A DNA stretch of 64,000 nt from Candidatus Moranbacteria bacterium GW2011_GWC2_40_12 (GTDB lineage Bacteria > Patescibacteriota > Minisyncoccia > Moranbacterales > UBA11712), in the NCBI GenBank assembly GCA_000995965.1, contig LBYD01000004.1:23711-87710 (forward strand), read 5' to 3'. Under the pieces are notes generated by a model. It was not told the origin of the DNA, did no database searches, and saw only the letters and a list, made by a program, of their open reading frames with translations. A program made the position numbers and the translations under genes. Shown here one piece after another: positions 5,803 to 27,678 of the stretch (its first letter is position 1; each line of letters opens with the position of its first letter).

Positions 5803-7095
5803 ATGCTAAATAACGCGCTGAAAAACCGATATATAAAGGATAATGCAGTAATGATGACCGGAACGGTTCTGGGAGGTTTTTTGGGCTATCTCTATCACTT
5901 TGTCGTCTCTCGCCAAATGTCCGTTGCCGAGTATGGAGAATTGCAAAGTCTCCTGTCTATTTTTTTGATTTTTGGCGTTTTTAATTCCGCAATTTCGTAT
6001 TTCACAGTCAGACACACATCTGTGTTCGCGGTTCACCATGATCAAGCGGCGAATTGGGAATTTGTTGATTACCTGATTCCCAAAGTATTGAAATACGCGA
6101 TGGTGTTTTTTATTTCGCTTCTGGTTTTCAGTTCGATATTTTCTTCCGCACTCCATTTTTCAAGTCCGGTCGGATTTGTGGTGATAAGTCTGGCGACATT
6201 CATTTCGACAATAACTGTCATTTATTCCGAAATATTGCGCGGCTGGAAAGAATTTTTCATAATGAGCGTCATCGGAGTTTCTATTGTCTTTGTGAAGTTA
6301 TTGTCAGGTGTAATATTAACCTTCTTCTCTCATAAGACGTCAATCGTGTCCCTTTCACTGCTAATCCCGTCTTTCGCGGGCTGGTATCTGGCGAAATACT
6401 GGAGTAGAAAAAAAATCGCCATTCAGAATGCGCAGGAAATCAAGGGAGGGTGGAAAGAGAAATATTTTTCCGAAATAAATATCCGGAAATCTGCCATAGC
6501 TATTTTCATTTATTCTCTCGCGCTTGTCTTGGTCTCCAATCTCGACATGATTCTCGTAAAATATTTTTCTTCACCCGAGCTCGCCGGATATTACGGCGCT
6601 TTTGCTCTTCTCGGCAAAATCATCCTCTGGCTCAATCTCGCCGTCATCGGAGTTATGCTTCCGGGAGCTTGTGCTGACGGTCACTCTGGAAAAAGGCCGG
6701 ACAAAAAATATCTTTTGTATTCTTATGGTCTGATGGCAACCGTCGCCGCTGGGATTATTCTGGTTTATTACATAATGCCAAGTTTTGCCATCAAGCTTTT
6801 TTTCGGAAATAAATATGCCGTTAACACCCAAATACTTTGGATATTTGGAGTGATGTCATATTTTCTTTCGATTCTGACATTTGAAGCGAATCTTTCCTTT
6901 GCTAAGCACAATTTCTACGTAGTATATTTTTTGGCGGGGACAGTGCTTTTGATGGTTGCGGGCGTGGCGAAATATCATGCGAGCCTTAAGGAAATAGTCA
7001 TTGCCCTTTCAGTTTCATTTTTGCTTGGCTACCTGTCTGTGGCCATATTGAACTTATCCAGTGAAAAACGGAAGCTAAACGCGGAAAAGATATGA
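5803..7095 (+). CDS. polysaccharide flippase (Wzx/MOP superfamily)
   Basis: 430 aa, about 12 TM helices, the polysaccharide biosynthesis protein architecture, placed at the head of the glycosyltransferase cluster. Confidence 0.65.
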   Translation: MLNNALKNRYIKDNAVMMTGTVLGGFLGYLYHFVVSRQMSVAEYGELQSLLSIFLIFGVFNSAISYFTVRHTSVFAVHHDQAANWEFVDYLIPKVLKYAMVFFISLLVFSSIFSSALHFSSPVGFVVISLATFISTITVIYSEILRGWKEFFIMSVIGVSIVFVKLLSGVILTFFSHKTSIVSLSLLIPSFAGWYLAKYWSRKKIAIQNAQEIKGGWKEKYFSEINIRKSAIAIFIYSLALVLVSNLDMILVKYFSSPELAGYYGAFALLGKIILWLNLAVIGVMLPGACADGHSGKRPDKKYLLYSYGLMATVAAGIILVYYIMPSFAIKLFFGNKYAVNTQILWIFGVMSYFLSILTFEANLSFAKHNFYVVYFLAGTVLLMVAGVAKYHASLKEIVIALSVSFLLGYLSVAILNLSSEKRKLNAEKI

Positions 7096-8069
7096 CGAAA
7101 TACAGCTTCATCATCCCGGTAAAAGAAATCAACGATTATGTTCGGGATAATGTCTCGAGAATTCTCTTGTTTGAAAGAGGTGATTTTGAAATTATAATCT
7201 ATCCCGATAAAGCTACGGAAGAAACCTGGGAAAAAGCAAGGCAGATCCCGACTGGATCCGGAGGCCCTGCAATGAAAAGAAATTTTGCTATCCGCGACGC
7301 GCGAGGCGAAATACTTATTTTTATTGATGATGATGCTTATCCCAAGGATGATTTTTTGAAAATCTTGGAAGCAGATTTCGAAGATAAGAATATCGTCGCA
7401 GTTGGAGGACCGGCCGTTACTCCGAAAGAGAGCAAATTTTGGCAAAGAGTAAGCGGTGCGACTTTTCTGAGCTCTCTCTCGGGGGGATTTCCGGAAAGAT
7501 ATCGGCCTATGGGAAAAAAAATATTCGTGGCTGATTGGCCCAGCGTGAATCTTTCCATCCGAAAGAAAGAGTTTTCCGACTTGGGCGGATTTGCGGGAGA
7601 TTATTGGCCGGGTGATGATACAAGGCTGGGTCTTGATCTTCTCATGAGAAAAAATACCCGCATTTTGTATGACCCGGACCTTATCGTTTATCACCATAGA
7701 CGGGAAGGGATCGTCAAGCATATAAAGCAAATCAGCGGTTATGGGCTGCACCGGGGATTTTTCGCCAAAAAATATCCAAAAACATCCCGAAACTGGAAAT
7801 ATTTTATGCCAAGCTTTTTCTTGCTGTTTATTGTCTTCGGAGGAATTCTTTCTTATTTTTCAAAAATATTTTTTCAGATTTATGTCCTTGGCTGGATAGT
7901 TTATTTCGTGGCATTGCTCAACGCGTTCTATGATATCTATAAGCATGAACGGAATATTCTGGTCACTCTGGCCGCGTCATACTATATTTTTCTCACGCAT
8001 ATTTTTTACGGCATAAGATTCATTCAGGGGTTTGTTTTTACAATTGAGTTAAAGAGCAAACTAAGGTAG
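7092..8069 (+). CDS. family 2 glycosyltransferase with C-terminal TM helices
   Basis: FIIPVKE...DDDAYP (DXD) GT-A signatures; start overlaps the previous stop (ATGA). Confidence 0.75.
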   Translation: MTKYSFIIPVKEINDYVRDNVSRILLFERGDFEIIIYPDKATEETWEKARQIPTGSGGPAMKRNFAIRDARGEILIFIDDDAYPKDDFLKILEADFEDKNIVAVGGPAVTPKESKFWQRVSGATFLSSLSGGFPERYRPMGKKIFVADWPSVNLSIRKKEFSDLGGFAGDYWPGDDTRLGLDLLMRKNTRILYDPDLIVYHHRREGIVKHIKQISGYGLHRGFFAKKYPKTSRNWKYFMPSFFLLFIVFGGILSYFSKIFFQIYVLGWIVYFVALLNAFYDIYKHERNILVTLAASYYIFLTHIFYGIRFIQGFVFTIELKSKLR

Positions 8070-8167
8070 TCTCTGCGAACTACAAAAACGCTTCGCTCTA
8101 CGAAAATCCGAACTACGAAAATTTTCGGATATTCGCAATTAATTCGTAGTTCGTAGAGAAAAAATCT

Positions 8168-9637
8168 ATGAAAAAGCTCAAAATATCAATATCATATCCA
8201 CCTCTGGAATCTCCCAAGGGCGTGCCTCTCCTTTCCCAAAATCGCCAATTTCAGTGGTTTTCCGACCCGACCTATATCTATCCGATGATTCCAGCCTCGG
8301 CCGCAACTTTATTGAAAGAAAACGGTTATGAGGTTTTTTGGGACGACGCGATTGCCGAAGAACTAAGCTATCATGAATGGCTGAAAAGGTTGGAAAAAGA
8401 GAATCCGGATATTATCGCATTCGAAACCAAGACGCCAGTGATAAAAAGGCACTGGGAAATAATTAATGGCATCAAAAATTCAAAATTCAAAATTCAAAAT
8501 TCAAAATTCATTCTGATGGGTGATCATGCCACGGCTCTTCCAGAAGAATCTCTTCTAAATTCCAAAGTTGATTATGTTCTTGCGGGAGGAGATTATGACT
8601 TTATGCTTTTGAGCATCGCGAACAAATTGGCGGGGACAGCCGAGCTGGAAGGGGGAGTATATTATCGCGACGGAAAAAGCGTGGAAAATTCCGGAAAATA
8701 CGATCCTTCAAAACATGCTCTGGACGATCTTCCTCAAATTGACCGCCGGCTCACGAAGTGGGAACTTTACGCCAATAAAAATGGGAATTTCAAATATACT
8801 CCCGGGTCGTATGTCATGAACGCCCGGGACTGCTGGTGGGGAAAATGCAGTTTTTGTTCCTGGACAACGATGTTTCCGGGTGAAAAATGCCGGACTCGTT
8901 CGGCTCAAAAAGCGCTTGACGAAATCGGCGAGCTTGTTAATTTGGGCGTGAAAGAAATAATGGAAGATTCCGGTACGCTTCCAATCGGAAAATGGCTCGA
9001 AGATTTTTGCGAAGGGATGATCGAGAAGGGATACAGCGAGAAAGTGAAAATCAGCTGCAATATGAGGCTGAATGCTATCAGGGATTTCAAAATTTATAAA
9101 TTGATGAAAAAAGCGGGCTTCCGGATGATACTGTTTGGGCTTGAATCGGCGAATCAAAATACTTTGGATAAAATTAATAAAAATTTGAAAGTCGAAGAAA
9201 TAGAGCCGGCTCTCAAAATGTGCAAAGCGGCTGGCCTTGAGCCGCACATCACCGTGATGGCCGGCTATCCCTGGGAAAAGAAAGAAGATGTCGAAAATAC
9301 TTTGTGTTTTGTGAAAAAATTATTCAAGAAAGGATATGTTGATTCTTTGCAGGCGACGCTCGTGATCCCGTATCCCGGCACGCCGCTCTATAAATACTGC
9401 CGGGAAAATAATTTGCTTTTGACGGAAGATTACGCACGTTTCGACCAGCGCGAGCCGGTGATGAAAACGGAGATGTCGCCTGATGAACTCAAAAAAATGA
9501 TCGGCAAATTATACCGATCATTCGTCACGCCGAAATTTTTGGCAAAAAAAATAACCGGCATAAAGAACTGGCAGGATATAAAACACATATCTCGCGCCGG
9601 CAAAAAAGTGCTGGGGCACCTCACCGATTTTTCTTGA
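8168..9637 (+). CDS. B12-binding domain radical SAM protein
   Basis: N-terminal cobalamin-binding-like domain, Cys cluster CWWGKCSFC, and a FGLESANQNTLDKINK (Elp3/MiaB-like) core; contains the (AAAATTC)5 repeat. Confidence 0.7.
   Translation: MKKLKISISYPPLESPKGVPLLSQNRQFQWFSDPTYIYPMIPASAATLLKENGYEVFWDDAIAEELSYHEWLKRLEKENPDIIAFETKTPVIKRHWEIINGIKNSKFKIQNSKFILMGDHATALPEESLLNSKVDYVLAGGDYDFMLLSIANKLAGTAELEGGVYYRDGKSVENSGKYDPSKHALDDLPQIDRRLTKWELYANKNGNFKYTPGSYVMNARDCWWGKCSFCSWTTMFPGEKCRTRSAQKALDEIGELVNLGVKEIMEDSGTLPIGKWLEDFCEGMIEKGYSEKVKISCNMRLNAIRDFKIYKLMKKAGFRMILFGLESANQNTLDKINKNLKVEEIEPALKMCKAAGLEPHITVMAGYPWEKKEDVENTLCFVKKLFKKGYVDSLQATLVIPYPGTPLYKYCRENNLLLTEDYARFDQREPVMKTEMSPDELKKMIGKLYRSFVTPKFLAKKITGIKNWQDIKHISRAGKKVLGHLTDFS
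8475..8509 (+). repeat. (AAAATTC)5 heptanucleotide tandem repeat inside a CDS
   Basis: Five perfect 7-nt units, read directly; encodes NSKFKIQNSKF in the radical SAM protein. Confidence 0.9.
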
Positions 9638-9643
9638 AAAAGC

Positions 9644-9783: not shown

Positions 9784-9957
9784 ATGCCAAGAAGCAAAAA
9801 AGAAGAAAGAAAAACGAGAAAATTGACAAAAGTTGGCAAAAAGACAATTGCAGTGACGATTCCGATTGAAATTGTCCGCGATCTCAAATGGAAGGAAAAA
9901 CAGAAAGTTACCATCAAAAGAGTCCGCGGTGGCGTGTTTATCAAGGATTGGAAATAG
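9784..9957 (+). CDS. AbrB/MazE/SpoVT-type swapped-hairpin DNA-binding protein (57 aa)
   Basis: Not in the ORF track (<60 aa); KVGKKTIAVTIPIEIVRDLKWKEKQKVTIKRVRGGVFIK matches the SpoVT/AbrB domain pattern; weak SD. Confidence 0.45.
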   Translation: MPRSKKEERKTRKLTKVGKKTIAVTIPIEIVRDLKWKEKQKVTIKRVRGGVFIKDWK

Positions 9958-9959
9958 TA

Positions 9960-10511
9960 ATGAATACAGAAACGAAGAAGAATAAAATTACGCTTTTTCC
10001 TGGAGGGTTTCAGAAAGTGAAAAATTACGGCTATCCGGGCTTGGATATCTGGACGGGTGATGATTTTCCGGACGACCTCAAATATCCCGACTTTTTTATT
10101 GGACACAGCGCGGGAGCGAGTTTCGTCCTTCGGTACGCGGCGAAACGAACGAGCCAATATATTTTCGTGAATCCGCTCGTGAAAAGAAAAGGAATATTTT
10201 TCCTCTTCTCGCGCTGGATAAAATACGCTTTTCAAGAAGGCCTCCCAACAGAAAAATTTATTCCGTTGAAATATTGGCCGGGTGCGCTCATAAAAGTTAT
10301 CAATTTATCACGGATTGATTTTCTCTCCGCCGCAAAAGATATTCCCAAAGAAAATATCACGGTTATTCGAGGAAAGAATGATAATTTCTTCTGCGACGAA
10401 GAGGCGGCAAGAATCATCCAAGAAAATGGAATCCGTCTCATCGAAGTCGCCGCCGGACACGATTGGAACGAAAACATAGAGGAGGCGGTGGCAAGAATAA
10501 TTCGCGGCTGA
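9960..10511 (+). CDS. alpha/beta-hydrolase fold protein
   Basis: GHSAG (GxSxG nucleophile elbow) and a C-terminal GHDW; the ATG at 9960 follows the upstream stop; the track ORF 9888 start is probably too long. Confidence 0.55.
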   Translation: MNTETKKNKITLFPGGFQKVKNYGYPGLDIWTGDDFPDDLKYPDFFIGHSAGASFVLRYAAKRTSQYIFVNPLVKRKGIFFLFSRWIKYAFQEGLPTEKFIPLKYWPGALIKVINLSRIDFLSAAKDIPKENITVIRGKNDNFFCDEEAARIIQENGIRLIEVAAGHDWNENIEEAVARIIRG

Positions 10512-10556: not shown

Positions 10557-11207
10557 ATGGATTATCAAAAAATATACAACAAGGATTATTTCGATGGGCG
10601 AAATTCTTTCTTTTATAAGCTGGGCTATGGGAATTTTGCCAAGTTTTATTTTGACAATCTTTTCAGGCCGCTCAAGTCATATATTAAAAATAATAAAAAA
10701 GGGAAAGTGCTGGATGTCGGATGCGCTTTTGGTTTGATGCTGGAAAGATTTCCGGGTTCATTCGAGAAGTTTGGAGTCGACGTTTCAGAATACGCGATAG
10801 AAGAAGCGAGGAAAAGGCTGCCGGAAGCGAAATTTGTCATCGTGAATGCGGAGGACGAGCTGCCGCTTCCTGAAAATAGTTTTGATATTGTCTTATGCAA
10901 CGATCTCCTGGAACATTTGGAATATCCGGAAAAAGCTTTGAGAAATATTTTTAAGGTATTGAAGGCGGGAGGAATATGCTATATCAACAGTCCGAACCTC
11001 AATTATTTCAGAAAGAAAATTTTTTTCTTAGCCGATAGGAAAGAACATCACATCAATCTCTTTTCGCATGAAGATCTTTCGAAGCTTCTGAAAAAAACGG
11101 GGTTCAAAATTGTGAAGAGATGGACGTACATAAATTTAACGTATTTCTTTTTTGTGAAATTCAAGTCCAACATCGGAATCGAATCGGGTTTTTTATGCAC
11201 GAAATAA
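10557..11207 (+). CDS. class I SAM-dependent methyltransferase
   Basis: VLDVGCAFGLM motif I and LCNDLLEHL motif; a Methyltransf_11/23-like layout. Confidence 0.75.
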   Translation: MDYQKIYNKDYFDGRNSFFYKLGYGNFAKFYFDNLFRPLKSYIKNNKKGKVLDVGCAFGLMLERFPGSFEKFGVDVSEYAIEEARKRLPEAKFVIVNAEDELPLPENSFDIVLCNDLLEHLEYPEKALRNIFKVLKAGGICYINSPNLNYFRKKIFFLADRKEHHINLFSHEDLSKLLKKTGFKIVKRWTYINLTYFFFVKFKSNIGIESGFLCTK

Positions 11208-11463: not shown

Positions 11464-12066
11464 ATGGAAGTCAAAGCTATTATCTTCGACGCTGACGGCG
11501 TGGTGATAAACTCTTCCGGATATTTCAGCGTCCAATATGAAAAAGAATTCGGCGTTTCAAATGACGTCATGGCGCCTTTTTTTAAAGGTATTTTTCAAGA
11601 AGCTGTTGCTGGAAGAGCGGATCTCAAAGAGCTGCTCGTGCCCGAGATCAAGAAATGGAAATGGAAAGGAACAATTGATGAGCTTCTCGAGTGGTGGTTC
11701 AAAGCCGAGCACTACGTGGACGAGAGGATCGCGAAAGAGATTCGGCGCCTACAGAAAAAAGGCATCAAATGCTGCCTCGGGACAAAGCAGGAAAAATACC
11801 GGGCCGCTTACATCAGAAAAGATATGGGTTTTGAAAAAATATTTGACGATCTTTATATCTCGTGCGAAATTGGACACAAAAAACCCGAGAAAGAATTTTT
11901 TGAATTTATCCAGAACGACCTTGCAAAAAAGTATTCCATCAGGAAAAATGAAATAATGCTCTGGGATAACAAGGAAGAAAACATTGCTGCGTCAAAAAAA
12001 TTGGGATGGCAAAGTTACCTGTATGAAGGCTTCGACGGTTTTCAAAAAACGATTTCAAATTTGTAG
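11464..12066 (+). CDS. HAD-superfamily hydrolase
   Basis: N-terminal IIFDADGVV (DxD motif I) and a downstream K/D motif pattern. Confidence 0.7.
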   Translation: MEVKAIIFDADGVVINSSGYFSVQYEKEFGVSNDVMAPFFKGIFQEAVAGRADLKELLVPEIKKWKWKGTIDELLEWWFKAEHYVDERIAKEIRRLQKKGIKCCLGTKQEKYRAAYIRKDMGFEKIFDDLYISCEIGHKKPEKEFFEFIQNDLAKKYSIRKNEIMLWDNKEENIAASKKLGWQSYLYEGFDGFQKTISNL

Positions 12067-16416: not shown

Positions 16417-16448
16417 AAATAAAAAAGTTCGAATCTTGAAAAAAATCA

Positions 16449-18910: not shown

Positions 18911-18922
18911 AAAGCATCAGAA

Positions 18923-19660: not shown

Positions 19661-20352
19661 TAAAAATTATCAAGAAAAATTTTCTTTATAATAGATTTAT
19701 CAGCTTCACTGTTGTGAAAATGGAGGCGTTCGTCAAAAAATCCGCCGAACAAATCAAAAAGCAATCGAAGATAATTGATATCGGGGCTGGAACCTGTCCC
19801 TATAAAAAATATTTCAAAAATATAAGCTATATTTCTCAGGATTTTTGCGTTAATGCTGAAAATGATTGGGATTTTAGCCATATTGATATTAAATCTGATG
19901 CCCACGATATACCAGTCGAAGACGGTTCATTTGATAATATCTTATGTATATCTGTTTTGGAGCATTTAGCTTATCCGCATAAAGCGATTGGAGAATTTTC
20001 ACGTATTCTGAGAAGCAAAGGGAGAATCTATCTCGCAGCTCCTTTGACATGGGGGGAGCATCATGAGCCATTTGACTATTTTCGCTACACCAAATTCGGT
20101 CTTAGAAAGATGGCTGAAGAAAATAACCTGAAGGTTATAAGCATAAAAAGCCAAGGAGGTTTTTTTATTCTTCTATCTCAGACAATCACCGGTTTTCCCC
20201 ATAATTATATAAGAAAAAAATTTCTGGCGAATACGTGTTTTTTGATTTTATATCCGATTAATTTTCTGATAGGATTCACATGCTATTTCCTGGATAAAAT
20301 CGATAAGACAAAAATCACGGTATTTTATGAATGCATTTTTGAGAAGAAATAA
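19645..20352 (+). CDS. class I SAM-dependent methyltransferase
   Basis: IIDIGAGTCPY motif I; ILCISVLEHLAYP...RSKGRIYLAAP. Confidence 0.7.
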   Translation: MVSKIIKIIKKNFLYNRFISFTVVKMEAFVKKSAEQIKKQSKIIDIGAGTCPYKKYFKNISYISQDFCVNAENDWDFSHIDIKSDAHDIPVEDGSFDNILCISVLEHLAYPHKAIGEFSRILRSKGRIYLAAPLTWGEHHEPFDYFRYTKFGLRKMAEENNLKVISIKSQGGFFILLSQTITGFPHNYIRKKFLANTCFLILYPINFLIGFTCYFLDKIDKTKITVFYECIFEKK

Positions 20353-20428
20353 TATGGAAGAGAAAGAAAATCGAAAAACTCCCTGCTGTTATCCGGACAG
20401 TATTTAATTGCACTGATTTTATTGTTTT

Positions 20429-21616: not shown

Positions 21617-21627
21617 CAGCTAGGATA

Positions 21628-22377
21628 ATGATTGAAAATAAGATAATTCAGAAAAATTTTTATAACAAACATTTTTCCAAAGAAAGCAGCCGGAGCGATG
21701 CTTGTTTCGACGCGGGCAAAAAATATTATTTGGATAATTTCATCAGCTCGGTGATTCGGCCTGATTCAAAAAAAGTGCTGGAAATCGGATGCGGCAACGG
21801 CTTTCTCACTTATTTTATTTTGAAAAGACCTATCCACCTCACAGCCATTGATATTTCAGAAATTGCCATCGAAAGCATGAAAAAAATATTTGCTCATGAA
21901 ATCGAACAAGGGAAACTAGATTCGAAGTGCGCCGACATCCTTGAATTTATGGAAAGTACGGATGGAAAATACGATGCCATAATCGGCTCAGGAATAATTC
22001 ATCATATTCAAAAAAAAGATTGGAAAAAATTATTTGAATTAGCACATAATAAATTGAATCATGGTGGGATTTTCGCTTGTGGCCCAGAACCAAATGCAGG
22101 GGGATTATATGCTTTCATTTGGCCCATGGCGAAATTTTTTTATAGCTTGTTCGGAATTGATTATGACCGGGAAGTTGAAAAGGGCACATTCGATATGATC
22201 CCGAGGAAGCTAAAGTCGGTTCTCAAAGAGGCGGGATTTCGAAATCCTGAAATCATCCCGTATCAAGTGATTCCCCATTTTCATTTGAAAATTCTGGAAT
22301 ATTTTGGCAAGAAAATAATAAAACATGTTCCAGGAAAATTATCATTTTATATAATTATTAAGGGAGAAAAGAGATAA
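21628..22377 (+). CDS. class I SAM-dependent methyltransferase
   Basis: VLEIGCGNGFLT motif I; AIIGSGIIHH. Confidence 0.7.
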   Translation: MIENKIIQKNFYNKHFSKESSRSDACFDAGKKYYLDNFISSVIRPDSKKVLEIGCGNGFLTYFILKRPIHLTAIDISEIAIESMKKIFAHEIEQGKLDSKCADILEFMESTDGKYDAIIGSGIIHHIQKKDWKKLFELAHNKLNHGGIFACGPEPNAGGLYAFIWPMAKFFYSLFGIDYDREVEKGTFDMIPRKLKSVLKEAGFRNPEIIPYQVIPHFHLKILEYFGKKIIKHVPGKLSFYIIIKGEKR

Positions 22378-22378
22378 A

Positions 22379-23821
22379 ATGAAAAAAAAAGTTCTCTTGT
22401 ATAATGCGATGCAAACAGCCTATGCCAACTCGGATAATTCTCCGTCTTTTTCTTTGATGGCATTGAGCGCCTATCTCAAGCAAAAGGGATATCAAGCAGA
22501 ATTGCTGCTGAACAATTGCTCCGACACGGAACTGAAAAATACCTTGAAGGACTGCCTGGCGGTAGGCTTTTCATTGTATACAGGCGGAACAAGAGATGCC
22601 TTCAAGATAGCCTCGCGGATAAGATCTTTTTCTCCGGAGCTTCCTTTGATTTGGGGAGGCTACCATCCGACCCTGGAAGCGGACCAATGCCTCCAAAGCG
22701 ATTATATCGATTATGTTATTCGAGGACAGGGAGAAATTACCTTATTAGAACTGTTAAAAAATTTTGAAAAACCGGATGAAAATCTGCTGGAATCCGTAAA
22801 GGGATTGTCTTATAAAAAAAATGGAGAAATATCCCACAATGAGACAAGAGAGTCTTCAAATATAAACGGATTTCCAAGTTTTGATTATGGCCTGTACGGC
22901 CATGTGTTCAAAAATGCTTCTGAAGCCACGTATATAACCAGCCGGGGATGCCCGTTTTCCTGCAAATTTTGCTGCTCGTCAAGCTTCAATCGAAATCACG
23001 GAATGAAGTTTTACCAGCTTTCTTTGGACAGGGTTTTTTCTGACCTTGAATTTTTGATATCCACCTATAATCTGGAAAAAATAAATTTTTTTGACGACAA
23101 TTTTTTTATTGAATCCGGAAGGATAAGGAAATTTGTCGAAGGATATAAGAAAAGGGGCTTCAACTTTCAATGGACAGCCTATGGGCGATGCCGCTTCTTT
23201 GCAAATGCTGAAGATGACTTGATAAAAAAATTGAAAGAAACAGGCCTGGAAAGAATTTTTTTTGGAGTCGAATCGGGATCTCAAATGATTTTGAACATGG
23301 TGAACAAACAAATGAAAACAGATGATGTTTTGCTGGCACTTCGAAAAATTACCCAATTTGGAATTTTGGGAGACTTCACTTTTATCAACGGTTTTCCCAA
23401 TGAAAAGGTATTGGACGTTTTCAAAAGTTTAGGGCTCAGGAACAAAATAAAGAAAATATCTCCAAAATCAAGCGTGCGCTTTTTTGTTTTTACGCCGCTT
23501 CCCGGAACAGAAATGCTGGAAACCTGCGAAAAACTCGGATATAAAAAACCCGAAGGAGTCAGAGACTGGAAGTCTTATGAATACCATTCGTTCAAAGCTC
23601 CCTGGCTGTCTCGGAGCTATCAAAGCTTTGTAAACAGCATTTCCTGGGCAGCGCAATTCAGCGAACTGGATCCAAGCATTGGGACGAATATATTATCAAA
23701 ATTAGTTTTCAAATTTTTGGCAAAAGATGCCGATTTTCGCTTCAAGCACAAAATATTTTTTCTTTCTCCGGAATTCAAAATTATAAATACTATTTATAGA
23801 AGAAAAATAATACGGGGGTAA
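22379..23821 (+). CDS. B12-binding domain radical SAM protein
   Basis: N-terminal B12-binding-like domain; canonical SRGCPFSCKFC (CxxxCxxC); FGVESGSQMILNMVNK. Confidence 0.75.
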   Translation: MKKKVLLYNAMQTAYANSDNSPSFSLMALSAYLKQKGYQAELLLNNCSDTELKNTLKDCLAVGFSLYTGGTRDAFKIASRIRSFSPELPLIWGGYHPTLEADQCLQSDYIDYVIRGQGEITLLELLKNFEKPDENLLESVKGLSYKKNGEISHNETRESSNINGFPSFDYGLYGHVFKNASEATYITSRGCPFSCKFCCSSSFNRNHGMKFYQLSLDRVFSDLEFLISTYNLEKINFFDDNFFIESGRIRKFVEGYKKRGFNFQWTAYGRCRFFANAEDDLIKKLKETGLERIFFGVESGSQMILNMVNKQMKTDDVLLALRKITQFGILGDFTFINGFPNEKVLDVFKSLGLRNKIKKISPKSSVRFFVFTPLPGTEMLETCEKLGYKKPEGVRDWKSYEYHSFKAPWLSRSYQSFVNSISWAAQFSELDPSIGTNILSKLVFKFLAKDADFRFKHKIFFLSPEFKIINTIYRRKIIRG

Positions 23822-23851
23822 CTTGAAATCATTAATCATTTTTATAATTAC

Positions 23852-24382
23852 ATGAAAAGTGGAACTAAAAAAATTATCGCTGTTAGCGCTGTCGTTCTCT
23901 TGCTGGCCGCATCAAGGCTCCTGAAACATCCCTACAATTTCACGCCCATCACTGCTATGTCGATATTTGCTGGATGCTATTTGCGAAAAAACTGGGGGCT
24001 GGTCTTTCCGCTGGGAGGAATGCTGGTCAGCGACTTTTTCATCGGTTTTTACGACTGGAAACTGATGGCAGCGGTTTATGCCGGCATTGCAATATCATTC
24101 TATATTGGCTGGTATCTGCGAAAAAAAATAACATGGAATCGAGTGATTTTCGCGGCTTTGATATCTTCTTTGCTTTTTTTTGTTGTTTCTAATTTTGCAG
24201 TATGGTTGTTCTATCAGTGGTACCCGCATACGCTGGCCGGTTTGAACCAGTGTTTCATTTTGGCGCTGCCTTTTTTCAAGAACAGTTTGGCTGGCGACTT
24301 GATTTATACCGGAGCGATATTCGCTGCCTATGAATTTTCCTTTAGAAAAATAAAGCAACGGGCCCTTCCTAAGGCTGCCTAA
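23852..24382 (+). CDS. small polytopic membrane protein (unknown function)
   Basis: 176 aa with 5-6 TM helices. Confidence 0.45.
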   Translation: MKSGTKKIIAVSAVVLLLAASRLLKHPYNFTPITAMSIFAGCYLRKNWGLVFPLGGMLVSDFFIGFYDWKLMAAVYAGIAISFYIGWYLRKKITWNRVIFAALISSLLFFVVSNFAVWLFYQWYPHTLAGLNQCFILALPFFKNSLAGDLIYTGAIFAAYEFSFRKIKQRALPKAA

Positions 24383-24386
24383 AAAT

Positions 24387-25007
24387 ATGTTTGAAAAAGA
24401 TCCTTTGCTGAATCTGGACAAATCTCCTCACAGTCCGCACAATATTATTCCCAATCTGATAAAGAAAGAAAAAGCTTATATTTTAGACGTGGGCTGCAAC
24501 ACAGGGATGATAGGCAAAGAGATTATCAAAAAAAAAGCGGCAATTGTTGATGGTATTGATATCAACAAAGAGGCCCTGAAAAAAGCTTCGGAAGCCTATC
24601 GAAAAGTTTTTCAGCGGGATTTGTCTCGTGATAAAATAGAAATCGAGGAAGAAAAATATGACTATATAATTTATTCCGATATTTTGGAGCATCTGCCAAG
24701 ACCGGATCAAATATTACGGGACATGAAAAGATATCTGAAGGGCGATGGAAGAGCGATTATATCTTTGCCTAACGTTGCGCGATTAGAAATCAGAGTCGGT
24801 TTGCTTTTTGGAAATTTTGACTATAAGCCGGGAATTCTAAGCGAAGATCATTTGCGTTTTTTCACCAAAAAGAGCGCTATTGAAATGATCGAAAAATGCG
24901 GGTATGGAGTAGTGGGCATAGTTCCAACCGGATTTGGGCATCGGTTTGGGATGTTGACCACCCTGACTGCGTTTCAATTCGTTTATGTTTGTAAAAAATC
25001 ATTATGA
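24387..25007 (+). CDS. class I SAM-dependent methyltransferase
   Basis: ILDVGCNTGMIG motif I; YIIYSDILEHLPRP. Confidence 0.7.
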   Translation: MFEKDPLLNLDKSPHSPHNIIPNLIKKEKAYILDVGCNTGMIGKEIIKKKAAIVDGIDINKEALKKASEAYRKVFQRDLSRDKIEIEEEKYDYIIYSDILEHLPRPDQILRDMKRYLKGDGRAIISLPNVARLEIRVGLLFGNFDYKPGILSEDHLRFFTKKSAIEMIEKCGYGVVGIVPTGFGHRFGMLTTLTAFQFVYVCKKSL

Positions 25008-26176
25008 AAGTGCTTGTCATTGAACCATGTTTTGTCGGCTACGGAGGTTATTTCCGGTCTTACAATATTTGCCTCAGTTTAAGCAAAAAACACATTTCAG
25101 CGGATTTGCTTGTTTCAAGCAACAAAAAATTTAACTTCTCCATAAAAAAAACAAGAATAAATGAAAACTTTTGCCAGTACGAACTGCCAAGATTCAGTAT
25201 CCATCCTTATCTTAACGGCCGGTTAGTGAGAGCTTTCCTGGCAATTATATTGGGTCTCTGCAAAAAATATGACATTATCCACGCGTGTGTTCCAACGCAG
25301 CTCGAATCAAATGTATCGGCTTTTTTCCTGAAACTCCTTGGGAAAAAAATAGTGATTGATTGGGATGATTATTGGATAGGCAGTCCGCTTTTCAAAAGAG
25401 ACACAATCGTAAAAAAATATATAACTTTTTGCGAAAAAAAGTCGCCCAAATATTTTGCAAATATCGTTGTTGTCAGCGATTTTTTGGAGGATAAAGCAAA
25501 AAAATGGGGTGCGAAAAAAATCCTCAAGCTGATAAATGGAGTGAATGCCAGCCAATTCACTGTGCACACAAGAGAAGAGGGAATAAGCAAGCTAGGTTTG
25601 GATGAAAATAAAAAATATTTATTAACTTTCGGAAATAGTTTTGCAAACGATAGGGCGCGCCTGCTTTTCGATACTTTTGAAAGGATATTCAATCTGGATC
25701 CCGAAGTTTATCTCTTATTCAATCTGGATCCCCTGAAAATAATTGGGGAACAAAGCCTGGCGAAAGAACGCAATTTTAAATGCCTGAAAAATATAATCAA
25801 TGTCGGATACATTAGCCAAAATGATTTGGGCTATTATCTGGGTGTTTGCGAAGCCGTTATTTTTCTGCAGGGAGAAACGAAAGATGAGATTGCCTGTTTT
25901 CCCATAAGAATCGGGAGTTATCTGAATGGAGAATCTGCTATAATAATAAACGACGTCAATTCTGAAACTGGAAATACGCTGAAAAAATGCAATTGTGCCA
26001 TCATAGAAAAAGATTTATCAATTTTAGCACATAAGGCCGTTGAATTTATACACGACAAAAATCGGCAAGTGGAGATGAAAAAAAAAGTTATATCGGCTAA
26101 AAATGAGTTGTCTTGGGACAATCAGATAGAAAAATTGGTTCATTTTTACGGCGAAATAATCCAAAAAAGAAAATAA
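25004..26176 (+). CDS. GT-B fold glycosyltransferase (divergent GT1/GT4-like)
   Basis: 390 aa; N-terminal MKVLVIEP Rossmann start typical of GT-B; weak C-terminal conservation; cluster context. Confidence 0.5.
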   Translation: MKVLVIEPCFVGYGGYFRSYNICLSLSKKHISADLLVSSNKKFNFSIKKTRINENFCQYELPRFSIHPYLNGRLVRAFLAIILGLCKKYDIIHACVPTQLESNVSAFFLKLLGKKIVIDWDDYWIGSPLFKRDTIVKKYITFCEKKSPKYFANIVVVSDFLEDKAKKWGAKKILKLINGVNASQFTVHTREEGISKLGLDENKKYLLTFGNSFANDRARLLFDTFERIFNLDPEVYLLFNLDPLKIIGEQSLAKERNFKCLKNIINVGYISQNDLGYYLGVCEAVIFLQGETKDEIACFPIRIGSYLNGESAIIINDVNSETGNTLKKCNCAIIEKDLSILAHKAVEFIHDKNRQVEMKKKVISAKNELSWDNQIEKLVHFYGEIIQKRK

Positions 26177-26192
26177 TGTTAGGCTATATAGA

Positions 26193-27035
26193 ATGAATAT
26201 GATAAAACAGCGAGTTGATGCTTCCGTATACGATGACAAATATTATGCCGGACGATATCAAAATATTGACTATCGGAATTTGGAAAGATTGGGCGACTTT
26301 GGCCATATCTATCAAAAAGCCGGTTCCATGCTGCAGCCTGAAGAACAGGATAAGATTGTTGATTTCGGATGCGGGATTGGTCACCTATCCTTTTATTTAT
26401 TCCTGAAGTACAAATGCGATGTAACCGGAGTAGATTATTCGCAGGACGCTCTTTTTTTATGCGAGAAAAATCTGAAGTTGCTTGAAGCTCGGATTGAATA
26501 TTCTTCGATTAGAGAAAAAGTACGCTTTGTATATTTCAATATCAATAATCCGCCCAACTTCAAAAATATCAAAGCAGTTTTTCTGATTGATGTGGTCGAG
26601 CATCTGTATGATCACGAGCTGAAGCTTGTTTTGGGTGAAATAAAAAAATGGGGCGGTAAAAATGGAATTCAGATTATTATCCATACGGATAACAATAATT
26701 ATTTGAAATTCATCCGGCCCATACTGGATTTTTTGGCCGTTTGTTTCAAAAAAAACACTTATCAAAAGTTGAACAAGGGATATGCGGAAGTGGCGAAAGG
26801 CCACGTGAATCTCACAACTGCTGGAAGACTCAAGAGAAAACTGGTTTCGCATAATTTCAGAGTTTTGAAGATTGAATATCCATTGATGAATACTACCACG
26901 ACCAAGAATCAGCTGGGTCCAATAGCACAGCACTGGTTTGTACTGTATCCAATAATTTTTTTTGGCAAGATTCTGTATTTCTTGCGGCCGAGCTTTTATG
27001 TCCTCGCGGAAAATAAAGAGACTTTCCAAAACTAA
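26193..27035 (+). CDS. class I SAM-dependent methyltransferase
   Basis: VDFGCGIGHLS motif I; FLIDVVEHL. Confidence 0.65.
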   Translation: MNMIKQRVDASVYDDKYYAGRYQNIDYRNLERLGDFGHIYQKAGSMLQPEEQDKIVDFGCGIGHLSFYLFLKYKCDVTGVDYSQDALFLCEKNLKLLEARIEYSSIREKVRFVYFNINNPPNFKNIKAVFLIDVVEHLYDHELKLVLGEIKKWGGKNGIQIIIHTDNNNYLKFIRPILDFLAVCFKKNTYQKLNKGYAEVAKGHVNLTTAGRLKRKLVSHNFRVLKIEYPLMNTTTTKNQLGPIAQHWFVLYPIIFFGKILYFLRPSFYVLAENKETFQN

Positions 27036-27039
27036 CTGC

Positions 27040-27669
27040 ATGAGCATCATATATAAGCATGATAAAGCTGTCGAAAGTGTTTTGTGCACAATAAGCAAAA
27101 AATATTCCGGCTATAATAAGTTTTTGGATGTGGGGTGCGGATATGGAGATAGGACACTTATTTTCAAAAACAGTCAGCGTGAAATTATAGGCATTGATTA
27201 TATAAATTATCATTCAAAAAATTATAAGGATTTCACTTTTTTGAACAGAAACTTTTTCAACAGCGGGTTTAGCCAAAAGTCTTTTGATATTATTTTCTGC
27301 TTTGATGTTCTAGAGCATATGGAGAAGCCGGAGAGGCTTCTATCGGAAATACATAGTTTATTGCGGCCCGGCGGGATATGCATATTATCGACACCAAATA
27401 AGCTCAGAATTTTAGGGGCCATTCTTATTGCAATAGGAAAACGAAAATTTCCATATTGCCTGGATGAAAGAAATAAGGAAAAATATCCGGAATATTGGCA
27501 TATAAAAGAGTATACGGGCAAAGAATTGCGGCAAATTGCGAGCGATAACGGATTCCAGGTTGAAAAGTTTTATAAAGTTTTTTATGGTTTGACTGGCGGA
27601 CGCGGTTTTAAATTTTTGTTTAATTTGCCTTTTTATCATAATTCCATTATTGTGATGAAAAAATCATAA
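27040..27669 (+). CDS. class I SAM-dependent methyltransferase
   Basis: FLDVGCGYGDRT motif I; FCFDVLEHMEKP...RPGGICILSTPN; the in-frame ATG at 27040 avoids overlap with the upstream gene. Confidence 0.65.
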   Translation: MSIIYKHDKAVESVLCTISKKYSGYNKFLDVGCGYGDRTLIFKNSQREIIGIDYINYHSKNYKDFTFLNRNFFNSGFSQKSFDIIFCFDVLEHMEKPERLLSEIHSLLRPGGICILSTPNKLRILGAILIAIGKRKFPYCLDERNKEKYPEYWHIKEYTGKELRQIASDNGFQVEKFYKVFYGLTGGRGFKFLFNLPFYHNSIIVMKKS

Positions 27670-27678
27670 GTATTTTTT

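What the first reader, a model, noticed from the sequence alone, without database searches (positions are those of the whole stretch)
5803..27669. ~22-kb glycan biosynthesis locus with an extreme number of methyltransferases
Between the flippase (5803) and guaA the locus contains:
- at least seven glycosyltransferases (GT2 x5, GT4, GT-B);
- a hexapeptide O-acetyltransferase and a TPR/PMT-like GT-C membrane protein;
- two B12-binding radical SAM enzymes (candidate C-methyltransferases or epimerases);
- at least eight separate class I SAM methyltransferase genes, at 10557, 15724, 18923, 19645, 21628, 24387, 26193 and 27040; ArsM-like and another methyltransferase lie nearby.
No nucleotide-sugar synthesis genes (rml, UDP-sugar dehydratases) are present. 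This points to a heavily O- or C-methylated surface glycan or glycoprotein modification system, unusual even for O-antigen or capsule loci.
Basis: partly seen in the sequence, partly recalled or inferred. Interest (0 to 1): 0.6.

Follow-up and report, generated by a model that had tools for sequence, protein, structure and literature searches.

The report
Methyl-rich surface-glycan island with B12 importer
A tiny-genome groundwater bacterium (Candidatus Moranbacteria) devotes about 22 kb to building a sugar coat that is probably very heavily methylated, partly by two vitamin-B12-type radical enzymes, and the same gene cluster carries a previously uncharacterised membrane protein that looks like its own vitamin B12 importer.

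Summary
The gene content is confirmed. Window 5803-27669 holds 24 genes:
- eight class I SAM methyltransferases (MTs);
- two B12-type radical SAM enzymes;
- five GT2, one GT4 and one GT-B-like protein;
- a hexapeptide acetyltransferase, a HAD hydrolase and an alpha/beta-hydrolase-like protein;
- a weak Wzx-like flippase;
- a TPR membrane protein with a weak PMT_2 signature.

The eight MTs are at most 39% identical to each other in local alignments. None reaches any curated NCBIfam cut-off, whereas the nearby ArsM and Elp3 do.

The window comes from Candidatus Moranbacteria (candidate phyla radiation). The locus is conserved as a unit beside guaA in relatives. A core persists (GT2c, GT2d, GT4, MT5, rSAM2, DUF6580, MT6, GT-B-like). 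Accessory genes vary, and relatives carry 4-6 MTs.

The best reading is a variable surface-glycan assembly and tailoring island. The chemistry of its product is inferred, not shown.

The new point is DUF6580 (23852-24382), which sits between rSAM2 and MT6. It is very probably a cobalamin transporter:
- its model best matches BtuM bound to cobalamin;
- its profile hits only an ECF-CbrT chain in the PDB;
- 56 of 80 family loci from metagenomes carry a cobalamin riboswitch, a transcobalamin-like DUF4430 protein, a TonB-dependent receptor or a B12-radical SAM gene.

Verdict: a new variant of a known kind, of moderate interest.

The parts
5803..7095 (+). Polytopic membrane protein, candidate Wzx/MOP-type flippase
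   Evidence: About 12 hydrophobic segments. Polysacc_synt E=4.6e-4, 20.2 bits, below the 28.2 cut-off. A terminator-like hairpin at 5721-5752 lies just upstream.
7092..8069 (+). GT2a glycosyltransferase with C-terminal TM segments
   Evidence: Glycos_transf_2 E=3.4e-14. TM segments at 235-279. Overlaps the flippase stop by 4 nt.
8168..9637 (+). Radical SAM enzyme 1, B12-type, with a non-canonical CX4CX2C motif
   Evidence: Radical_SAM 60 bits; B12-binding 22 bits, below cut-off. Best NCBIfam hits are HpnJ (159/578 bits) and BchE. Cysteines C222, C227 and C230 are conserved in the L088 orthologue. Orthologues are 81% identical in L172 and 53% in L088.
9888..10511 (+). Alpha/beta-hydrolase-like protein (GHSAG motif), possible esterase; accessory
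   Evidence: Sequence motif IGHSAGASF. Weak Abhydrolase_6, E=0.004. Absent between rSAM1 and the TPR gene in L172.
10557..11207 (+). MT1, class I SAM methyltransferase (accessory)
   Evidence: Methyltransf_23/11, E about 1e-22. No curated NCBIfam family reached. Motif I VLDVGCAFG.
11464..12066 (+). HAD-family hydrolase (candidate sugar-phosphate phosphatase); accessory
   Evidence: Hydrolase/HAD_2. Only sub-threshold NCBIfam hits.
12118..13860 (-). Membrane protein with a C-terminal TPR domain; PMT_2/TMTC-like candidate GT-C glycosyltransferase
   Evidence: About 11-13 TM segments plus TPR. PMT_2 E=0.0057. Many 46-74% identical homologues carry PF13231, and JGI names them protein O-mannosyl-transferase. 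S102-D103-D104 is invariant. AF2 model pLDDT 83.5.
13909..14721 (+). GT2b glycosyltransferase, divergent from the TPR gene
   Evidence: Glycos_transf_2 E=4e-26. A 72% identical orthologue is in the same divergent arrangement in L172.
14628..15758 (+). GT2c glycosyltransferase (core); true start probably near 14739
   Evidence: Glycos_transf_2 E=2e-27. Orthologues are 72-77% identical and 335-339 aa long.
15724..16416 (+). MT2, class I SAM methyltransferase
   Evidence: Methyltransf_11 E=1e-10. Weak MftM hit. 69% identical orthologue in L006.
16449..17039 (+). Hexapeptide-repeat O-acetyltransferase
   Evidence: Hexapep/Hexapep_2. Best NCBIfam hits are WbbJ, WcaF and NeuD sugar acetyltransferases, all below cut-off.
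16951..17949 (+). GT2d glycosyltransferase with C-terminal TM segments (core); start probably near 17026
   Evidence: Glycos_transf_2 E=2e-30. TM segments at 261-323. Orthologues 54-58% identical.
17930..18910 (+). GT2e glycosyltransferase (accessory)
   Evidence: Glycos_transf_2 E=5e-36. No close orthologue in L006 or L089.
18923..19660 (+). MT3, class I SAM methyltransferase (accessory)
   Evidence: Methyltransf_23 E=6.5e-12. Motif I VVDVGCGIG. No orthologue in L006, L088 or L089.
19645..20352 (+). MT4, class I SAM methyltransferase (accessory)
   Evidence: Methyltransf_11 E=4e-12. No orthologue in L006, L088 or L089.
20429..21616 (+). GT4 glycosyltransferase (core)
   Evidence: Glycos_transf_1 E=2e-30. 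Orthologues 51-68% identical.
21628..22377 (+). MT5, class I SAM methyltransferase (core), always directly upstream of rSAM2
   Evidence: Methyltransf_25/12/31. Orthologues 57% identical in L006 and L089. Only generic MTs in the PDB. GenBank auto-name 'rRNA small subunit methyltransferase C' is not supported by NCBIfam (RsmC 25 bits, cut-off 295).
22379..23821 (+). Radical SAM enzyme 2, cobalamin-binding (core)
   Evidence: B12-binding 48 bits (cut-off 32.1) and Radical_SAM 53 bits. CPFSCKFC motif at residue 191. Best PDB hits are OxsB (2e-13), CysS, TokK and AprD4. Orthologues 62-78% identical.
23852..24382 (+). DUF6580 six-helix membrane protein; predicted cobalamin transporter (BtuM/CbrT-like S-component fold)
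   Evidence: PF20221 E=1.5e-49. AF2 pLDDT 88.6. Foldseek best hit is BtuM with cobalamin, TM 0.68. The profile's only PDB hit is 6fnp_A of ECF-CbrT, E=1.3e-4. Riboswitch, DUF4430, TonB-dependent receptor and B12-rSAM contexts. DUF6580-DUF4430 fusion.
24387..25007 (+). MT6, class I SAM methyltransferase, MetW-like (core)
   Evidence: Methyltransf_23/12/31 and MetW. Orthologues 56-82% identical in L006, L088 and L089. Best PDB hit 3cc8, a putative methyltransferase, 6e-29.
25004..26176 (+). Soluble 390-aa protein, GT-B/GT4-like candidate glycosyltransferase (core)
   Evidence: No Pfam hit. TuaH 26 bits. Orthologues 70-73% identical, carrying weak Glyco_transf_4 hits. No meaningful PDB sequence match: only three Csm2 entries at E about 0.08.
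26193..27035 (+). MT7, class I SAM methyltransferase
   Evidence: Methyltransf_31/25/23. 46% identical orthologue in L006; absent in L089.
27040..27669 (+). MT8, class I SAM methyltransferase (accessory), last gene before guaA
   Evidence: Methyltransf_23 E=4e-21. Start at 27040 from public gene calls. Only 29-35% identical relatives in L088 and L089.

Best explanation
The region is a variable cell-surface glycan assembly and tailoring island of a Candidatus Moranbacteria (candidate phyla radiation) genome.

Proposed mechanism. All steps below are inferred unless marked as shown.
1. Soluble and membrane-associated GT2, GT4 and GT-B-like transferases build an oligosaccharide on the cytoplasmic face, probably on a polyprenyl-phosphate carrier.
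2. The growing glycan is decorated by an O-acetyltransferase.
3. It is methylated by up to eight different class I SAM methyltransferases, each probably specific for one position or residue.
4. It is further modified by two B12-type radical SAM enzymes. These would do chemistry that ordinary MTs cannot, most likely C-methylation of unactivated sugar carbons as GenK and GenD1 do. Epimerisation or rearrangement is an alternative.
5. A Wzx-like protein flips the product. A conserved PMT_2/TMTC-like membrane protein with an extracytoplasmic TPR domain attaches sugar or glycan to surface proteins or another envelope acceptor.
6. The embedded DUF6580 protein imports cobalamin to load the radical SAM enzymes.

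Shown here:
- the domain content of the locus;
- the mutual divergence of the eight MTs;
- a conserved core with variable accessory genes in relatives;
- the BtuM-like fold of DUF6580 and the cobalamin-linked genomic contexts of its family.
For: Gene content.

The MTs are not recent duplicates. All pairs are at most 39% identical, over local alignments of 46-225 residues. All keep motif I. None reaches a curated family cut-off, while ArsM and Elp3 in the same window do.

The organism is Candidatus Moranbacteria, from the Rifle aquifer and elsewhere.

Synteny:
- L089 and L172 hold the same locus next to guaA. rSAM2 is 78% identical, GT-B-like 73%, MT6 82%, rSAM1 81% and GT2b 72%.
- L006 and the P0005 contig keep the core and add NDP-sugar epimerases.
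- L088 is more distant (rSAM2 37%, rSAM1 53%). It again combines two B12-rSAM, two other rSAM, at least five MTs, GT2 and GT4 genes, a 579-aa TPR membrane protein, a Polysacc_synt flippase and an ABC-2 transporter.

Operon structure: genes 13909-29205 are packed with gaps of -35 to +76 nt. GC falls to 0.36-0.40 inside the locus, against 0.42-0.47 outside.

TPR protein: PMT_2 hits in homologues, and an invariant SDD motif.

DUF6580 as a cobalamin transporter:
- fold match to BtuM with cobalamin, then to ECF S-components;
- the profile's only PDB hit is a chain of the ECF-CbrT entry;
- cobalamin riboswitches at DUF6580 loci L090 and L091 and in 15 of 80 metagenome loci, 391 kb in all;
- operons of the form riboswitch, then transcobalamin-like (alpha-toroid plus DUF4430) secreted proteins, then DUF6580;
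- a DUF4430-family neighbour in 39 of 80 loci, a B12-rSAM in 13 and a TonB-dependent receptor in 8, with at least one of these or a riboswitch in 56 of 80;
- a natural DUF6580-DUF4430 fusion.

Precedents: class B radical SAM C-methylation of sugars (PMC12689558), and an S-layer O-glycan with up to five methyls on six sugars (PMC5088730).
Against: - No MT matches a characterised sugar O-methyltransferase above threshold, so sugar substrates are assumed from context only.
- No priming phosphoglycosyltransferase, Wzy polymerase, ligase or nucleotide-sugar gene is in the window.
- The flippase and PMT_2 assignments are sub-threshold. I could not confirm the GT-C fold. Foldseek was swamped by the TPR domain, and the N-terminal profile has no PDB sequence hit.
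- PMT-type enzymes transfer single sugars, not preassembled glycans. How the cytoplasmic oligosaccharide and the GT-C enzyme connect is unresolved.
- rSAM1 has a sub-threshold B12 domain and a CX4CX2C motif.
- Close rSAM2 orthologues also occur without any glycan context.
- For DUF6580: no riboswitch and no ECF A/T module is in the window. None of the 20 closest family loci has a riboswitch. The cobalt-ligating cysteine I recall for BtuM has no invariant counterpart in the alignment.
Confidence: 0.6

Rival explanations
1. The enzymes are the same, but the product is a wall- or membrane-anchored glycopolymer or glycolipid rather than a protein-linked glycan. It would resemble a teichuronic or teichoic acid, a lipoglycan or a capsule. 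The TPR/PMT_2-like protein would then be a conserved neighbour with a separate role.
For: GT-B-like 25004 and GT2e give their best, though weak, hits to the teichuronic-acid enzymes TuaH and TuaG. The P0005 locus is followed by LytR_C and Mur ligase genes. L088 carries an ABC-2 (Wzm/Wzt-like) exporter. The TPR gene is much more conserved (up to 74% across many genomes) than the variable glycan genes, and it lies on the opposite strand.
Against: No LCP ligase, polymerase or chain-length regulator is in the window. The TPR/PMT_2 gene keeps its position inside the locus in the window, L172, L088 and the P0005 contig.
Confidence: 0.27
2. The locus is a secondary-metabolite gene cluster. It would make a methylated oligosaccharide or aminoglycoside-like compound, or a glycosylated RiPP, not a cell-surface structure.
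For: B12-radical SAM enzymes combined with several MTs and GTs are typical of antibiotic pathways such as gentamicin. The best NCBIfam hits for rSAM2 are the RiPP enzyme ApyD and PhpK. MT5 and MT7 weakly hit the daptide MT.
Against: All these hits are far below cut-off (for example ApyD 123 against 750 bits). No scaffold genes were found: no 2-deoxy-scyllo-inosose synthase, PKS, NRPS or precursor-peptide gene. The locus has a flippase-like protein, GT2 enzymes with TM anchors and a PMT_2/TPR membrane protein. It occupies a conserved chromosomal position with the mosaic accessory content typical of surface-glycan islands.
Confidence: 0.07
3. The product is an intracellular polymethylated polysaccharide, analogous to mycobacterial methylglucose lipopolysaccharide or methylmannose polysaccharide, not a surface structure.
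For: A high ratio of MTs to GTs is characteristic of those systems (my own knowledge). There is also no polymerase or ligase in the window.
Against: A flippase-like membrane protein, a polytopic PMT_2/TPR protein with an extracytoplasmic-type TPR domain, and membrane-anchored GT2 enzymes are present. The gene content is hypervariable between close relatives, which is typical of exposed structures.
Confidence: 0.04
4. The methyltransferases are unrelated housekeeping enzymes (rRNA, tRNA or quinone MTs) that happen to lie among glycosyltransferase genes.
For: GenBank auto-annotates MT5 as 'ribosomal RNA small subunit methyltransferase C'. Weak UbiG, UbiE and CmoB hits occur.
Against: None reaches a curated cut-off, while ArsM and Elp3 nearby do. 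MT2, MT5, MT6 and MT7 have syntenic orthologues inside the same glycan locus in relatives. The MT genes overlap or abut the GT genes. Eight in 24 genes is about 3e-7 by chance.
Confidence: 0.02

Closest known systems
Heavily methylated S-layer O-glycan of the anammox bacterium Kuenenia stuttgartiensis (PMC5088730)
   Same: It is a bacterial surface glycan with an unusually high methyl load: up to five methyl groups on six sugars, reported as more than in other bacterial S-layer glycans. The best rSAM2 relative listed in the species-genome scan was from a Brocadiaceae MAG (29% identity).
   Different: There the chemistry is known and the genes are not assigned. Here the genes are known and the chemistry is not. 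No orthology between the two systems was shown.
Wzx-dependent O-antigen, capsule and general protein O-glycosylation gene clusters (e.g. Tannerella forsythia, PMC6120980)
   Same: Both cluster GT2 and GT4 transferases, an acetyltransferase, methyltransferase(s) and a flippase. Both have mosaic, strain-variable content and lower GC.
   Different: The window has no priming phosphoglycosyltransferase, Wzy, ligase/O-OTase or nucleotide-sugar genes. It has eight MTs and two B12-type radical SAM enzymes where such clusters usually have none to three. It also has a PMT_2/TPR membrane protein and a cofactor transporter.
Class B (cobalamin-dependent) radical SAM sugar C-methyltransferases GenK and GenD1 of gentamicin biosynthesis (PMC12689558)
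   Same: Both have an N-terminal B12-binding domain and a radical SAM core. Both work beside ordinary SAM MTs on carbohydrate substrates in a 'methylation network'.
   Different: There is no detectable close homology. The best solved relatives of rSAM2 are OxsB, CysS and TokK, at E from 2e-13 to 4e-6. The context is a surface-glycan locus, not an antibiotic pathway. rSAM1 has CX4CX2C and resembles HpnJ and BchE, which as far as I know are not methylases.
BtuM and ECF-CbrT cobalamin transporters (PDB 8c7p, 8ovv, 6fnp; PMC5997447)
   Same: DUF6580 has the same small six-helix S-component fold (TM 0.68 to BtuM with cobalamin). Its profile hits a 182-aa chain of the ECF-CbrT entry. The family is linked to cobalamin riboswitches and BtuB-like receptors.
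   Different: It is a separate Pfam family (PF20221), 16-17% identical to BtuM. It has no invariant cysteine. No ECF energising module lies nearby. It is frequently paired or fused with transcobalamin-like DUF4430 proteins. No paper in the searched library mentions it.
PMT and TMTC protein O-mannosyltransferases (GT-C fold; TMTC has C-terminal TPRs)
   Same: Both have a polytopic N-terminal domain followed by TPR repeats. Homologues carry PMT_2 hits and are named protein O-mannosyl-transferase by JGI. An invariant acidic SDD motif follows the first TM helix. GT2 enzymes with C-terminal TM helices nearby could make the polyprenyl-phosphate sugar donor.
   Different: The window protein itself is below the PMT_2 threshold. 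The fold was not confirmed. The donor and acceptor are unknown.

Membership tests
Class I SAM-dependent methyltransferases | Rossmann-type MT domain recognised above the family threshold | tested here: met
   All eight genes score above Pfam gathering cut-offs for one or more of Methyltransf_11, 23, 25 and 31.
Class I SAM-dependent methyltransferases | Glycine-rich SAM-binding motif I | tested here: met
   An (V/I/L)(L/V/I)(D/E)xGxGxx-like loop is present in all eight.
Characterised sugar O-methyltransferases (e.g. MftM, Pse-associated methylase) | Score above the curated equivalog cut-off | tested here: not met
   MftM scores 20-30 bits against a cut-off of 200, and Pse_Me-ase 26 against 112. 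PDB neighbours are generic or uncharacterised MTs.
Housekeeping MTs (UbiE/UbiG, rRNA and tRNA MTs) | Score above the curated equivalog cut-off | tested here: not met
   The best UbiG score is 51 bits against a cut-off of 103. RsmC, KsgA and CmoB are all far below cut-off. Positive controls ArsM and Elp3 pass.
Cobalamin-dependent (class B) radical SAM enzymes | N-terminal B12-binding domain | tested here: met
   rSAM2 scores 48 bits against 32.1. rSAM1 scores only 22.3 bits, so it is inconclusive for that protein.
Cobalamin-dependent (class B) radical SAM enzymes | CX3CX2C iron-sulfur cluster motif | tested here: met
   rSAM2 has C191-x3-C195-x2-C198, invariant in 24 homologues. rSAM1 instead has CX4CX2C, conserved in its orthologue.
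Cobalamin-dependent (class B) radical SAM enzymes | Methyl transfer to an unactivated carbon (as opposed to another radical reaction) | not testable with these tools
   Nearest named families include methylases (PhpK, TokK, CysS, KedN5). They also include families that, from my own knowledge, are not methylases (OxsB, BchE, HpnJ, AprD4). All are below cut-off.
Wzx/Wzy-type surface polysaccharide locus | MOP-family (Polysacc_synt) flippase | tested here: inconclusive
   20.2 bits against a cut-off of 28.2, E=4.6e-4, with about 12 TM segments. No NCBIfam hit.
Wzx/Wzy-type surface polysaccharide locus | Priming phosphoglycosyltransferase, Wzy polymerase or ligase | tested here: not met
   No such domain in any of the ORFs of at least 120 aa that I scanned across the window. 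The rest of the genome was not available.
Wzx/Wzy-type surface polysaccharide locus | Nucleotide-sugar synthesis or modification genes in the locus | tested here: not met
   None in the window. Present in relatives: Epimerase/GDP_Man_Dehyd in the P0005 locus and L006.
PMT/TMTC-type GT-C glycosyltransferase | PMT_2-type polytopic domain | tested here: inconclusive
   Window protein E=0.0057, 17.3 bits against 26.1. PF13231 is recorded for many close homologues. No PDB sequence hit for the N-terminal profile. Fold search was uninformative.
PMT/TMTC-type GT-C glycosyltransferase | Conserved acidic motif in the first extracytoplasmic loop, plus C-terminal TPR repeats | tested here: met
   S102-D103-D104 is invariant after the first long helix. 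TPR repeats lie at residues 460-575. The side of the membrane the loop faces is inferred.
BtuM/CbrT-like cobalamin S-component transporters (for DUF6580) | Six-helix S-component fold | tested here: met
   The model has pLDDT 88.6 and six helices. Its best PDB matches are BtuM with cobalamin (TM 0.68, probability 1.0), then ThiT, FolT, RibU and PanT.
BtuM/CbrT-like cobalamin S-component transporters (for DUF6580) | Genomic link to cobalamin regulation or uptake | tested here: met
   RF00174, RF01482 or RF01689 riboswitches at 17 family loci. DUF4430 neighbours in 39 of 80 loci, TonB-dependent receptors in 8 and B12-rSAM genes in 13. A DUF6580-DUF4430 fusion exists. There is no riboswitch in the window itself.
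BtuM/CbrT-like cobalamin S-component transporters (for DUF6580) | BtuM cobalt-ligating cysteine, or an ECF A/A'/T module partner | tested here: not met
   There is no invariant cysteine in the 39-sequence alignment. No ECF module is in the 64-kb window. The whole genome was not examined.

The most novel reading that the evidence does not exclude
Moranbacteria and related Patescibacteria would have a lineage-typical surface glycosylation system. Its glycans would be diversified mainly by methylation. Up to eight position-specific O-methyltransferases would act together with cobalamin-dependent radical SAM enzymes that install C-methyl or other radical modifications on sugars.

The system would depend on scavenged vitamin B12, imported by a previously unrecognised transporter family (DUF6580) that works with bacterial transcobalamin-like binders (DUF4430).

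Together with the adjacent diversity-generating retroelements, the island would be a hot spot for varying the cell surface that these epibionts present to hosts and phages.
Probability: 0.3. Interest if true: 0.75.

Novelty: new variant of a known kind. Interest (0 to 1): 0.55.

Why it matters
Bacteria of the candidate phyla radiation have genomes of about 1 Mb and live attached to, or dependent on, other cells. What they put on their surface is central to that lifestyle and is almost unknown chemically.

About 2% of such a genome spent on one glycan locus, a third of it methyltransferases plus two B12-type radical enzymes, predicts an unusually hydrophobic, methyl-capped glycan. It also predicts a dependence on externally supplied cobalamin.

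Separately, DUF6580 has about 4,800 cluster representatives at E<=1e-10 and no mention in the library of papers I could search. Assigning it to cobalamin uptake, together with transcobalamin-like DUF4430 proteins, is directly testable. If correct, it would improve B12-auxotrophy predictions in many uncultured lineages.

Tried and rejected
1. The genome-contig scan with the rSAM2 alignment failed. Only relatives of 31% identity or less from unrelated phyla came back, so it gave no synteny information. I used exact-protein look-ups instead.
3. The PDB search of the whole TPR protein returned only TPR proteins.
4. Literature searches for CPR or Patescibacteria glycan methylation, for B12-radical SAM enzymes in polysaccharide loci, and for 'DUF6580' found nothing specific.
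5. No cobalamin riboswitch is in the window, and no ECF module.
6. I considered recent tandem duplication as the origin of the eight MTs and rejected it. All pairs are at most 39% identical in local alignments.
7. I considered and rejected the housekeeping-MT reading and the RiPP or antibiotic cluster reading (see rivals).
8. The promoter scan is no better than shuffled sequence (49 found against 45.5 expected) and was not used.

Full report
**What is there.**
The window has a run of 24 genes from 5803 to 27669. All are on the + strand except one.

In order, the genes are:
- a polytopic membrane protein with a sub-threshold Polysacc_synt hit (5803);
- GT2a (7092);
- a radical SAM enzyme with a weak B12 domain (8168);
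- an alpha/beta-hydrolase-like protein with a GHSAG motif (9888);
- MT1 (10557);
- a HAD hydrolase (11464);
- on the minus strand, a 580-aa membrane protein with C-terminal TPR repeats (12118-13860);
- GT2b (13909), GT2c (14628) and MT2 (15724);
- a hexapeptide acetyltransferase (16449);
- GT2d (16951), GT2e (17930), MT3 (18923), MT4 (19645), GT4 (20429) and MT5 (21628);
- a B12-binding radical SAM enzyme (22379);
- DUF6580 (23852) and MT6 (24387);
- a 390-aa GT-B-like protein (25004);
- MT7 (26193) and MT8 (27040);
- then guaA (27679).

From 13909 to guaA the genes overlap or are at most 76 nt apart. A strong terminator-like hairpin precedes the first gene. GC drops to 0.36-0.40 inside the locus, against 0.42-0.47 outside.

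**Are the methyltransferases real, distinct and non-housekeeping?**
- All eight exceed Pfam thresholds for class I MT domains and keep the glycine-rich SAM loop.
- They are not recent copies. Every pairwise comparison gives at most 39% identity over local alignments of 46-225 residues.
- Against NCBIfam, none reaches the curated cut-off of any family, whether UbiE/UbiG, rRNA or tRNA MTs, or sugar MTs such as MftM.
- The same library confidently names the ArsM at 2079-2831 (327 bits, cut-off 263). It also names the Elp3 at 46699-48348 (558 bits, cut-off 350). The negative result is therefore informative.
- The GenBank auto-name 'rRNA small subunit methyltransferase C' for MT5 is not supported.
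- PDB neighbours of MT5 and MT6 are generic or uncharacterised MTs.

**Source and conservation.**
Exact matches to the window's proteins lie on contigs of several Candidatus Moranbacteria assemblies and metagenomes. The organism is thus a member of the Parcubacteria within the candidate phyla radiation.

I read the contexts of rSAM2 homologues by exact-protein look-up. They show the locus is conserved as a unit with variable content.
- In a 29-kb contig (L089 and L172) the same locus sits against guaA. Identities are 78% for rSAM2, 76% for DUF6580, 82% for MT6, 73% for GT-B-like, 68% for GT4, 57% for MT5, 77% for GT2c, 72% for GT2b and 81% for rSAM1.
- That contig has only four MTs. It lacks the hydrolase-MT1-HAD block. 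It also has a HEPN/MNT pair and a diversity-generating retroelement inserted between GT2b and GT2c.
- Two further contigs keep the core and add NDP-sugar epimerase/dehydratase genes and a SPASM radical SAM enzyme.
- A more distant locus, L088, has rSAM2 at 37% and rSAM1 at 53% identity. It again combines two B12-radical SAM enzymes, two other radical SAM enzymes and at least five MTs. It also has GT2 and GT4 genes, a 579-aa TPR membrane protein, a Polysacc_synt flippase and an ABC-2 exporter.
- MT3, MT4, MT8 and GT2e have no orthologue in these relatives.
- Two rSAM2 homologues (53% and 68% identical) lie outside any glycan locus.

A conserved position, a conserved core, a mosaic periphery and low GC are the usual signature of a surface-glycan island.

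**The two radical SAM enzymes.**
- rSAM2 has a B12-binding domain above threshold and an invariant CX3CX2C motif. Its nearest solved relatives are the cobalamin enzymes OxsB, CysS and TokK, and also AprD4.
- rSAM1 resembles HpnJ and BchE. It has a sub-threshold B12 domain and a CX4CX2C motif that its orthologue shares.
- No named family is reached. Methylation as in GenK and GenD1 (PMC12689558) is the leading guess, but it is not established.

**The TPR membrane protein.**
- It is far more conserved than its neighbours, up to 74% identity in the listed homologues from many assemblies.
- Many homologues carry PMT_2 hits, and JGI names them protein O-mannosyl-transferase.
- An SDD motif after the first long helix is invariant.
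- The window protein itself is sub-threshold for PMT_2.
- I could not confirm the GT-C fold. The full-length model only retrieved TPR proteins, and the other fold libraries were unavailable.

**DUF6580: the unexpected part.**
This 176-aa protein lies 30 nt after rSAM2 and 4 nt before MT6. It accompanies rSAM2 in the related loci.

Four lines of evidence point to cobalamin transport.
- *Fold.* An AlphaFold model (pLDDT 88.6) has six helices. Its best PDB matches are BtuM bound to cyano- and hydroxocobalamin (TM 0.68), followed by ECF S-components.
- *Sequence profile.* A profile of 39 family members has a single PDB hit. It is a 182-aa membrane chain of entry 6FNP, the ECF-CbrT vitamin B12 transporter (E=1.3e-4).
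- *Context in two diderm genomes.* The family sits beside a TonB-dependent receptor that is controlled by a cobalamin riboswitch.
- *Context in metagenomes.* Among 80 family loci fetched from metagenomes (391 kb):
  - 15 carry a cobalamin-clan riboswitch;
  - 39 carry a DUF4430-family neighbour;
  - 13 carry a B12-radical SAM gene;
  - 8 carry a TonB-dependent receptor;
  - 56 have at least one of these.

Several loci are clear operons. A riboswitch is followed by a secreted 600-900-aa protein with an alpha-alpha toroid. That protein gives weak to threshold Cobalamin_bind hits and carries DUF4430. A small DUF4430 protein follows, and then DUF6580. DUF4430 is the C-terminal domain of transcobalamins (PMC4350170). 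A natural DUF6580-DUF4430 fusion also exists.

The family has about 4,800 representatives at E<=1e-10. No paper in the searched library mentions it. NCBI calls it only a 'putative transport protein'.

Caveats: the closest relatives, and the window itself, have no riboswitch and no ECF module nearby. There is also no invariant cysteine.

In other Patescibacteria the protein is followed by a GtrA-fused GT4 and a B12-radical SAM enzyme. This repeats the link between glycan genes, B12 chemistry and B12 import.

**Interpretation.**
The most likely reading is a variable surface-glycan assembly and tailoring island. Its product is decorated by acetylation, multiple O-methylations and B12-dependent radical chemistry, with a dedicated cobalamin importer.

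Domain content, divergence of the MTs, synteny and the transporter evidence are shown. Sugar substrates, the degree of methylation, the lipid carrier, the acceptor and the radical reaction type are inferred.

The main alternative is a wall- or lipid-anchored polymer rather than a glycoprotein. A natural-product cluster, an intracellular methylated polysaccharide and a chance grouping of housekeeping MTs are unlikely.

**Comparison and novelty.**
Glycan loci with one to a few MTs are common. An S-layer glycan with five methyls on six sugars is known in Kuenenia (PMC5088730). The novel elements here are:
- the number and diversity of MTs;
- the pairing with two B12-type radical SAM enzymes in a minimal-genome CPR bacterium;
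- the embedded candidate B12 importer.

I rate it a new variant of a known kind, interest 0.55. The DUF6580 assignment is the most immediately testable outcome.

Noticed in passing
window 30223-32782: A complete diversity-generating retroelement. The target ORF is 30223-30888 (221 aa, no Pfam or NCBIfam hit), with its variable repeat at 30766-30884. The template repeat is at 31233-31351, bAvd at 31350-31757(-) and the reverse transcriptase at 31742-32782. Twelve of the 13 TR/VR mismatches are at template adenines.
   Followed up: yes
window 29303-29927 (-): A HepT-like/nucleotidyltransferase (HEPN/MNT) toxin-antitoxin pair lies between guaA and the DGR. In the relative L172 a similar pair plus a second DGR is inserted inside the glycan locus, between GT2b and GT2c.
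   Followed up: partly
window 8168-9637: Radical SAM enzyme 1 has CX4CX2C (C222, C227, C230) instead of the canonical CX3CX2C. The motif is conserved in its 53% identical orthologue in L088.
   Followed up: partly
L116, L118, L140, L142, L150, L163, L170 (about positions 400-4000 in each): Cobalamin-riboswitch operons encode secreted proteins with a prenyltransferase/SQHop-cyclase-like alpha-toroid plus DUF4430, and small DUF4430 proteins, upstream of DUF6580. They look like bacterial transcobalamin-like B12 capture proteins. P0415 is a DUF6580-DUF4430 fusion.
   Followed up: partly
L093, L104, L106 (about 3500-7100): In other Patescibacteria-like contigs DUF6580 is followed by a 567-aa GtrA-fused GT4 glycosyltransferase and then a B12-binding radical SAM enzyme. 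A GDP-mannose 4,6-dehydratase is a neighbour in 15 of 80 DUF6580 loci.
   Followed up: partly
window 2079-2831: A real arsenite methyltransferase, ArsM (NCBIfam 327 bits, cut-off 263). It is separated from the glycan locus by CBS, response-regulator and unknown genes. It served as a positive control for the MT classification.
   Followed up: yes
window 46699-49170: An Elp3-type tRNA-modification radical SAM/GNAT enzyme (558 bits) lies divergent from another class I methyltransferase (48352-49170). The pair is unrelated to the glycan locus.
   Followed up: partly
window 39446-39832 (-) and 43130-43386 (-): A tmRNA (141 bits) and a cluster of tRNA hits. The third hit (43336-43386) is only 51 nt and sits at the gathering threshold (29.4 bits).
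   Followed up: no
window 2947-3924 and 4975-5709: Two proteins with a single N-terminal TM or signal segment and no family match lie just upstream of the locus. They could be surface proteins and candidate glycosylation targets.
   Followed up: no
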